From the NCBI RefSeq assembly GCF_006345805.1, contig NC_043013.1, positions 868,001 through 932,000 of the forward strand: 64,000 bases of DNA, in the 5' to 3' direction. The DNA is from Octopus sinensis. Lineage: Eukaryota. Shown here one piece after another: positions 39,524 through 40,579 of the stretch. Each line of letters begins with the position of its first letter. Within the stretch, counting starts at the first letter, position 1. A program made the translations under genes and the position numbers. The notes beneath the pieces are model-generated. The model was not told the DNA's origin and ran no database searches. It saw nothing but the letters and a program-made list of their open reading frames with translations.

Positions 39524-40244
39524 GTAAGAAAACATTTTGAAGCATCTTGTTATTTTTTCATCATCATCATATATATATATATGATGTATATATATGTGTG
39601 TATATATATGTGTTTTTACTGTTTTGTTCTCATTGTTTTGTCCTTTACTGTTGTTACTTTTTTATTGTTTTTACTGTTTTGGTCTTTTTGTCCTGTTCTT
39701 GTTACCATTTTTACCCTCTGCAAAAAATTCCAAATTTTATTTGATTTGCTTTGCGGGAAGGACTGTTTCAATGAAGTTGCGTCTTGTCCTTACCTTCGAA
39801 ACACAGAGTAGATGAAACAGGGACAACTGAAGAAGGGGAATATTCCTTGTGTTGTATGTCTTGTTCCTCTGTTGTTTTTTTTTGTTATTTGAAAAAAAAG
39901 TTCGTTTCTATGTTTTTGTTTTTATGTTTTTGTTTCTCATTGTGTTCAACGTTTTTTTGATGTCCTGTACCCATATATGCATGTATATATGCATGTAGAG
40001 GTAGGTACGTACATATATATATGTATATATTTATATATTTGAGTAATTGAATGAATTATCTTATTAAGGATTATTCGAAAGATAACCGATACCTGGGTAG
40101 CAAATTCACATCAGAAAGAACACATTTGAAGCTACGTCGCTAGGGCATAGACTACGTGTCTTCGTGCAGAAATTTGTATGTTTATTTTAAAATTATAAGT
40201 ATATGAAAGAATGGAGTCGAACGACTAGTTAACAAATATCCTTT

Positions 40245-40329
40245 ATTCTCAACATATGTTTCGAAGGCTGCATATTCCTAATTCCGAAGGAATAAGGAGT
40301 ACATTATGCAGATTTCTCTTCAGGAAAAT
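40245..40329 (-). ncRNA. Type I hammerhead ribozyme (mirror copy, GUU triplet)
   Basis: Same as the plus copy except that the cleavage triplet is GUU. Confidence 0.78.
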
Positions 40330-40444
40330 CAAGGAAACTTATGTCAACATCAAAATGCACAAAAAACTTTTAGCTGACCGCTCTCAAGGAGCCCATGGCG
40401 ATAATGAGTTTTTGTGCATTTTGATGTCGACATAAGTTTCCTTG

Positions 40445-40529
40445 ATTTTCCTGAAGAGAAATCTGCATAATGTACTCCTTATTCCTTCGGAATTAGGAAT
40501 ATGCAGCCTTCGAAACATATGTCGAGAAT
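40445..40529 (+). ncRNA. Type I hammerhead ribozyme with intact core
   Basis: Stem I ATTTTC/GAGAAT; CTGAAGA; long stem II (GAA/TTC, CTGCATA/TATGCAG, TCCT/AGGA, ATTCC/GGAAT); GAA; palindromic stem III ACATATGT; GUC triplet (cut after 40523). Confidence 0.85.
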
Positions 40530-40579
40530 AAAGGATATTTGTTAACTAGTCATTCAACTCCATTCTTTCATATACTTAT

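What the first reader, a model, noticed from the sequence alone, without database searches (positions are those of the whole stretch)
40195..40579. Intact hammerhead ribozyme pair in a fold-back element; the sense copy lies inside the E-Syt pre-mRNA
Seen: a ~385-bp inverted repeat in which each arm carries a complete type I hammerhead (CUGAAGA, GAAA, stem I pairing) with an unusually long, multi-segment stem II and a palindromic stem III (ACAUAUGU). The plus copy has a GUC triplet and is transcribed with the host intron; the minus copy has GUU. Known: minimal hammerheads with palindromic stem III occur in Penelope-like pseudo-LTRs and retrozymes and cleave as dimers, and inverted pLTR copies are typical of Penelope insertions. 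Inference: a self-cleaving motif in a host intron could cut the pre-mRNA, while the antisense arm, transcribed first, would trap it in dsRNA. This would be a built-in off switch that ADAR editing could modulate.
Basis: partly seen in the sequence, partly recalled or inferred. Interest (0 to 1): 0.75.

Follow-up and report, generated by a model that had tools for sequence, protein, structure and literature searches.

The report
Penelope retrotransposon end with hammerhead ribozyme
This fold-back is a short two-armed remnant of an abundant Penelope-type jumping gene in an intron, and its self-cutting RNA motif is predicted to be locked inactive in the host transcript, so a gene-control switch is unlikely; the notable point is that its family lacks the zinc finger thought to steer such elements to TA repeats yet still lands there.

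Summary
Observation confirmed: 171-nt arms (4 mismatches), each with a type I hammerhead whose long stem II covaries across subfamilies. The insertion is larger than reported (~40039-40579, between (TA)n tracts). [quoted passage not shown]

The host off-switch is not supported. The hairpin beats the ribozyme fold by ~135 kcal/mol, and still by ~30 with every A edited. Editing also hits the core. GUU is a CpG-type change found in few copies. Contigs of two probable RNA runs splice the intron.

Side results: (1) in 26 of 26 evaluable inverted insertions one arm ends at each of two sites ~150 nt apart, and 9 cannot be simple fold-back copies, which points to twin priming; (2) a clade of families with open ORFs lacks the CxCX5C linker yet ends in (TA)n.

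The scan noted hammerhead-bearing, two-armed Penelope insertions in this genome before (218 notes fit; e1-8807173 gave the two-site reading for another repeat). Cleavage is untested.

The parts
39368..39523 (+). Host exon upstream of the intron (C2-domain end, likely extended synaptotagmin)
   Evidence: AG/GT boundaries and phase 0; contigs of runs X1 and X3 stop at 39523 and continue with the 41674 exon; best PDB hit human E-Syt2, E=0.014
39524..41673 (+). Host intron that holds the insertion
39984..40038 (.). Left (TA)n-rich target tract (approximate left edge)
   Evidence: sequence
40039..40409 (-). Long arm: pLTR copy from about the TCATT initiator-like site to the distal ('long') 3' end
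   Evidence: 96% identical to positions 300-672 of the reference copy L042:2570-3400
40039..40194 (-).
40195..40365 (-). Left arm of the inverted repeat
40240..40334 (-). Hammerhead copy with GUU (antisense to the host; 63 of 65 aligned arms of other copies have C here)
40366..40408 (-). 43-nt spacer = 5' part of the long arm; ends in a short microhomology junction at ~40407-40410
40409..40579 (+). Short arm: pLTR copy ending at the proximal ('short') 3' end
   Evidence: 98% identical to reference positions 341-512
40440..40534 (+). Type I hammerhead (sense to the host): stem I, CUGAAGA, long stem II, GAAA, palindromic stem III, GUC; predicted cut 40523/40524
40580..41231 (.). Right (TA)n / (TATG)n microsatellite tract
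   Evidence: sequence
41674..41942 (+). Next host exon (3' boundary read from a GT, not tested)

Best explanation
The feature is a ~540-nt, 5'-truncated, head-to-head pair of pseudo-LTR copies of an abundant Penelope-like retrotransposon inserted into a (TA)n tract of a host intron, likely made by twin priming and likely neutral to the host, with the sense ribozyme predicted to be trapped in double-stranded RNA. Shown: family membership, the coding element upstream of longer copies (unit 3,251 bp, pLTR-ORF-pLTR), two fixed 3' ends, (TA)n flanks, covarying hammerhead stems, splicing of the intron in two probable RNA runs. Inferred mechanism: the element's nuclease nicks both strands of a (TA)n tract; each strand primes reverse transcription on element RNA, one at the distal site and one ~150 nt upstream; both cDNAs run through an uncut hammerhead, stop early (often at the RNA's likely 5' end) and are joined by microhomology. 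The hammerhead serves the element, likely cutting as a dimer through its palindromic stem III in tandem transcripts. In the host pre-mRNA the antisense arm is made first and would zip up the sense arm before the ribozyme is complete, leaving an inert 171-bp hairpin that may be an incidental ADAR or small-RNA substrate.
For: Copy number: 1,616 first-look candidates, 1,572 pattern matches vs 0 control. Coding element: L038 787-aa open frame, L042 direct pLTRs 3,251 bp apart; model's best PDB matches are telomerase RTs (E 4e-9); nuclease model's top six rows are GIY-YIG enzymes, weakly (E 0.03-0.23). Ends: 26 of 27 inverted insertions among 50 loci have one long and one short end; the exception is cut by the locus edge. 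In 9 of 26 the short-site arm holds sequence absent from the long-site arm, and 3 share none. TA runs follow 67 of 80 ends in family A and 39 of 44 in B vs 5.1% of window positions, and 19 of 20 in D. Fold: 85% of cells paired vs 79.6+-1.1 shuffled, 31 double-change cells vs 14.4, slid controls 37-53%. Energies: hairpin -287 vs -152 kcal/mol with the ribozyme forced; 113 of 115 sense-arm bases paired back when transcription reaches the cut site; active dimer -48.6 vs -18.4 per monomer. Literature: inverted pLTRs with a tail on one end are typical (PMC3846280, PMC8557442); a purified PLE cuts and extends both strands, starts RT at two internal sites, and its HHR cut only with protein present (PMC11167929); metazoan PLE HHRs cut poorly in vitro (PMC4209133).
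Against: No cleavage, editing or insertion event was observed directly. Rfam and RNAalifold do not call the hammerhead. Pair counts come from 17 related sequences picked with a core-containing pattern, so relatedness inflates them. Arms of one insertion agree at the variable N7 position in 22 of 23 pairs and sometimes share private changes, which fits one template and therefore also fold-back copying. It is unknown whether the animals whose RNA shows splicing carry this insertion; their contigs show family-majority alleles, not this copy's. Loci were chosen as best hits, so they favour young, intact copies. Folding energies ignore proteins and kinetics.
Confidence: 0.85

Rival explanations
1. 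Host off-switch: the sense ribozyme cuts the host pre-mRNA unless held by the antisense arm, and ADAR editing tunes the release.
For: The sense copy has an intact core and GUC and lies in a transcribed intron; young repeats are the main ADAR targets in animals (PMC9989829, passages); an intronic ribozyme affecting its host is reported for CPEB3 (PMC10919898, search listing only).
Against: Energy gap at least 112 kcal/mol at 5% editing, 49 at 50%, 30 at 100%, and 45 when only the antisense arm is fully edited; core intact in 2 of 40 draws at 50% and 0 of 40 at 70%. A second sense copy for dimer cleavage is absent from the hairpin. The layout is the family's default product and the copy is young, with private changes. 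The intron is spliced in two studies.
Confidence: 0.04
2. The inverted pair arose by fold-back self-priming of one cDNA (the reading offered for rotifer Penelope in PMC3846280), not by two priming events.
For: Short microhomology at this junction; arms share rare alleles; in 17 of 26 insertions, this one included, the short arm lies within the sequence of the long arm (to within 1 nt).
Against: In 9 of 26 insertions neither arm contains the other, and 3 share no sequence; the fixed short end would need a separate cause.
Confidence: 0.15
3. It is a member of a separate non-autonomous family (retrozyme or MITE-like fold-back) that spreads as a 385-540-nt unit.
For: Many copies are short, and 13 arm starts cluster at reference 300-305.
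Against: Junctions and arm lengths differ between insertions, and the same arm runs continuously into the RT-EN ORF in long copies; no tandem short monomers were seen in the loci examined.
Confidence: 0.05

Closest known systems
Hydra clade of C-terminal-EN Penelope-like elements (Craig et al. 2021, PMC8557442; section 11, section 15, passages, supplement parts 1, 2, 58 read), incl. Hydra-1_Obim
   Same: RT then C-terminal nuclease; RW-type N-terminal motif (RIRWL), DKT, GLYRDD, divergent RT4, CxxC and CxH around the conserved E/N, no CCHH, hammerhead in the pLTR with an extra base after A9, (TA)n targets, inverted 5'-truncated copy.
   Different: No CxCX5C linker: a conserved SE.NP.R..F.S.NSKI motif stands in its place, usually after an Asn/Ser-rich stretch. 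Unit 3.25 kb vs generally <3 kb. Stem II region 54 nt, longer than in any Hydra row of their table S2. Stem III is a perfect even palindrome. Tail ~150 nt vs 30-40 bp.
PAc / Poseidon of Anolis (Frangieh et al. 2024, PMC11167929; parts 1-2 of 4 read)
   Same: Two RT start sites that define a tail, AT-rich targets, HHR in the pLTR, both strands used.
   Different: Here the two ends are ~150 nt apart and lie upstream of the likely ATG, not 111-118 nt inside the ORF; different clade.
Adineta vaga Penelope elements (PMC3846280; passages and Discussion read)
   Same: Head-to-head inverted pLTRs with a tail on one end; Asn-rich inserts between RT and EN.
   Different: That paper reads the inversions as self-priming; 9 of 26 insertions here do not fit simple self-priming.
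Metazoan minimal PLE hammerheads and non-LTR retrozymes (PMC4209133 parts 1-2 of 4; PMC7229834 passages; bioRxiv 10.64898/2026.07.22.740005 part 1 of 5)
   Same: Type I fold, palindromic short stem III, likely dimeric; opposite-strand pairs 100-700 bp apart already reported in Schistosoma.
   Different: Not a tandem non-coding repeat; it is the end of a coding element.

Membership tests
Type I hammerhead ribozyme | Core CUGANGA, GAAA and NUH triplet in type I order | tested here: met
   triplet GUC 64, GUA 26, GUU 3 of 93 distinct copies (the pattern required a core and GUH)
Type I hammerhead ribozyme | Stems I, II, III with compensatory changes | tested here: met
   10 of 22 pairs with a double change; 0 of 500 shuffles reach the covariation score; slid controls lower. 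RNAalifold did not recover it
Type I hammerhead ribozyme | Match to a curated Rfam hammerhead model | tested here: not met
   the long stem II and minimal stem III may explain the miss (inference)
Type I hammerhead ribozyme | Self-cleavage at the NUH site | not testable with these tools
   only contigs were available
Penelope-like elements (EN+) | Telomerase-like RT | tested here: met
   Foldseek top rows are TERT; Pfam and PDB sequence search of the single protein gave nothing relevant; the profile hits a retron RT weakly
Penelope-like elements (EN+) | GIY-YIG endonuclease in the same ORF | tested here: inconclusive
   Top six Foldseek rows are GIY-YIG nucleases but E>=0.03; Y-x12-YIG, R, H invariant in 24 aligned homologues; homologue P0001 hits Pfam GIY-YIG below cut-off
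Penelope-like elements (EN+) | pLTRs in direct tandem and inverted arrangement with a tail on one end | tested here: met
   L042 direct, 27 of 50 loci inverted
Hydra clade | C-terminal EN, RWK-type motif, DKT, no CCHH, CxxC and CxH motifs | tested here: met
   against section 11 and figure S7 text; RWK reads RWL here; compared by eye, no joint tree with the published sequences
Hydra clade | CxCX5C linker between RT and EN | tested here: not met
   Absent in family A copies and one B fragment and in L152-154, L163, L166, L169; present in 30 of 31 database homologues with an EN signature and in all nine Hydra rows of figure S7
Hydra clade | Insertion in (TA)n | tested here: met
Non-LTR retrozyme | Tandem 150-450 bp non-coding monomers | tested here: not met
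   arm is continuous with a coding 3,251-bp unit
tRNA-headed Penelope (earlier scan notes) | tRNA-derived head in the pLTR | tested here: inconclusive
   ARAGORN finds none in L001, L038, L042; it can miss degenerate heads

The most novel reading that the evidence does not exclude
A self-mobilising clade of Hydra-like Penelope elements has replaced the zinc-finger linker with an unrelated conserved motif and still targets (TA)n, so the linker is not the targeting determinant; and its insertions record twin priming from two RT start sites ~150 nt apart, with the palindromic hammerhead stem III possibly pairing two template RNAs for a dimeric enzyme.
Probability: 0.3. Interest if true: 0.55.

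Novelty: new variant of a known kind. Interest (0 to 1): 0.3.

Why it matters
As a host switch it does not matter: it is one of well over a thousand related copies and is predicted to be inert in the pre-mRNA. For retrotransposon specialists two points are testable. The linker-free clade, with several open ORFs, challenges the proposal (discussed in PMC8557442) that the RT-EN linker zinc finger directs microsatellite insertion. The strict one-long, one-short end rule gives genomic support for twin priming as the source of Penelope inverted repeats, which that paper lists as an open question.

Tried and rejected
Rfam scans: no hammerhead, only hairpin-type miRNA models below threshold. RNAalifold: trivial structure. 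Pfam on the element ORF and on the host exons: nothing above cut-off. PF17047 genome search: no match anywhere, uninformative. The look-up of sequencing runs: no holder on record as RNA; 14 of 20 are guessed RNA. Read laying: contigs only, so no ends, strand or editing; no contig spans the insertion, so presence in other individuals is unresolved. Post-insertion selection on the core: 5 of 643 vs 44 of 3,798 variant cells in flanks, too little power and biased to young copies. 5' ends at the cleavage site (reference 457): none exact, nearest 443 and 461; the sample is biased. Naiad and Neptune were considered from recall and rejected: EN is C-terminal, no CCHH. Careful protein tree did not finish; the quick tree is used and flags long branches. 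Literature searches for an octopus PLE hammerhead, for twin priming in Penelope and for Hydra linker and targeting returned no listing that describes this family, twin priming of pLTR arms or a linker-free Hydra; the library lacks most subscription papers and Repbase was not searchable. Only 3 of 59 parts of the PMC8557442 supplement plus two searches were seen. Earlier-finding search by this sequence returned nothing.

Full report
Observation. The inverted repeat is real: 40195-40365 pairs with 40409-40579 over 171 nt with 4 mismatches. Each arm holds a type I hammerhead with an 11-position stem I, CUGAAGA, a 54-nt three-segment stem II, GAAA and the palindrome ACAUAUGU; the plus copy has GUC, the minus copy GUU. 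Rfam does not report it. The host intron is 39524-41673: contigs of two probable RNA runs from two studies end at 39523 and go on with the exon at 41674. The exon's best PDB match is human extended synaptotagmin-2 at E=0.014, so the gene name is likely, not proven.

It is a repeat. The window lies in a 2.72-Gb genome; I take it to be an octopus-like cephalopod from the genome size, named homologues in Argonauta and earlier scan notes, which is inference. A search with one arm gave 1,616 first-look candidates, of which 40 were scored. A core-anchored pattern matches 782+790 places, its reversed control none. Other copies show that the element continues 156 nt past the left arm to ~40039, where (TA)n begins, and that the spacer belongs to the long arm.

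The parent element. Upstream of the arm, long copies carry an ORF. L038 has a 787-aa open frame, and L042 has two direct pLTRs 3,251 bp apart. The folded model matches telomerase RTs best. The C-terminal domain's top six matches are GIY-YIG nucleases, with weak E-values. Motifs agree with the Hydra clade as described in PMC8557442 section 11 and figure S7 text, except that the CxCX5C linker is missing. It is present in 30 of 31 database homologues with a nuclease signature, of 47 found. Among 20 loci from a protein search of the genome (17 long enough for the tree, 3 left out), linker-free sequences form one clade of 12 rows with L038 (SH-aLRT 100, quick tree). It includes open ORFs of 778-908 aa at 60-67% identity to L038. 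Linker-bearing relatives (L157, L158, L160, L162) also exist in the genome, so mobilisation in trans is not excluded, though open ORFs in several diverged families argue for self-mobilisation. In place of the zinc finger these proteins share an SE.NP.R..F.S.NSKI motif. I file it as a Hydra-like variant, not as a plain member.

The ribozyme is under selection in the element's history. Across 17 representatives of related subfamilies, 85% of cells pair against 79.6+-1.1 in shuffles, 10 of 22 pairs show double changes, and slid controls fall to 37-53%. Stem III varies among AUAU (83), AUGU (7), ACGU (2) and AAAU (1) of 93 distinct copies, so it nearly always stays self-complementary (the pattern fixed the outer A and U). 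Relatedness inflates these counts, and RNAalifold did not find the fold. Alone, the motif folds stems I and II partly and stem III rarely (probability 0.07); the best homodimer fold has the intermolecular 8-bp stem III. This matches the dimer-dependent, weakly active PLE ribozymes of PMC4209133 and the protein-assisted one of PMC11167929. A monomer activity is not excluded.

How the fold-back arose. Arm 3' ends fall at two sites ~150 nt apart. Of 50 loci, 27 show outward-facing arms; 26 have one long and one short end, and the exception is cut by the locus edge; 23 show one arm or none within the stretch held. In 9 of the 26 the short-site arm holds sequence that the long-site arm lacks, and in 3 they share nothing, so neither is a copy of the other. 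TA runs follow 67 of 80 such ends in this family and 39 of 44 in subfamily B, against 5.1% of window positions (misses not inspected), and 19 of 20 in family D. With the in vitro finding that a PLE protein cuts and extends both strands and starts at two internal sites (PMC11167929), twin priming is the best reading; it is inferred. Against it, arms agree at N7 in 22 of 23 pairs and share private changes in several, which shows a common source and also fits fold-back copying for the nested cases, this locus included. Thirteen arm 5' ends fall at reference 300-305, on a TCATT motif (initiator role recalled, untested), which may be the RNA's start. An earlier scan note (e1-8807173) gave the two-site reading for another repeat before I ran these counts.

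The host-switch idea. In the pre-mRNA the antisense arm comes first. By the time the cut site is made, 113 of 115 sense-arm bases pair back. The full hairpin is -287 kcal/mol against -152 with the ribozyme forced. Treating edited A's as unpairable, the smallest gap is 112 kcal/mol at 5% editing, 49 at 50% and 30 at 100%, and 45 if only the antisense arm is fully edited; the five core A's survive in 2 of 40 draws at 50%. These are nearest-neighbour estimates without proteins or kinetics. Every arm with a whole ribozyme was copied from RNA that was uncut, or re-joined, at that site. The copy differs from the family majority at 10 of 371 and 3 of 171 positions, two of them shared subfamily alleles; GUU is a CpG-type change seen in 2 of 65 arms of other copies. 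No read evidence specific to this copy was found. The hairpin may well be edited, as young repeats are (PMC9989829, passages), but that would not free an active ribozyme.

Verdict. An ordinary Penelope-like insertion, real ribozyme motif, unlikely host switch. What is new is at family level: a linker-free Hydra-like clade that still targets (TA)n, a long conserved stem II, a ~150-nt tail and a strict two-end rule. Searches listed no paper describing these, within the limits of the library. Interest 0.3.

Noticed in passing
window 39620-39970 (+): A second, older repeat in the same intron (5,336 first-look candidates) has hammerhead parts in scrambled order (GUC, then GAAAC, then CUGAAGA at ~39778-39840), like the type noted in e1-8668970 and e1-8665826. 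It is sense to the host, has no antisense arm beside it, and by eye has a stem III mismatch in this copy.
   Followed up: partly
window 54850-55035: Another fold-back pair with a hammerhead-like motif of a different family (CUGAUGA at 54957, GUU); the minus copy has an altered core.
   Followed up: no
L042:2845-2880 (reference 276-306): A TGACGTCA-type palindrome, a TATAAAG and a TCATT motif lie just upstream of the clustered 5' ends; the TATA-to-TCATT spacing (13 nt) is shorter than usual. The window's long arm keeps the TCATT, so antisense transcription from ~40405 is possible.
   Followed up: no
flanks of L014, L021, L026, L037, L038, L047, L049, L070, L071, L078, L080: Many unrelated hammerhead-like motifs lie within a few kb of the sampled insertions; (TA)n tracts appear to collect several PLE families.
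   Followed up: no
G000, loci L152-L171: Many Hydra-like ORFs without stops (717-960 aa open frames; 42,692 first-look candidates), suggesting several recently active families.
   Followed up: partly
L005, L012, L016: Long-site arms stop at reference 587-591 in three unlinked insertions, a possible second preferred stop or join point.
   Followed up: no
window 45864-46907 and 46892-48328: A LINE-type RT frame followed by ~332-bp direct repeats.
   Followed up: no
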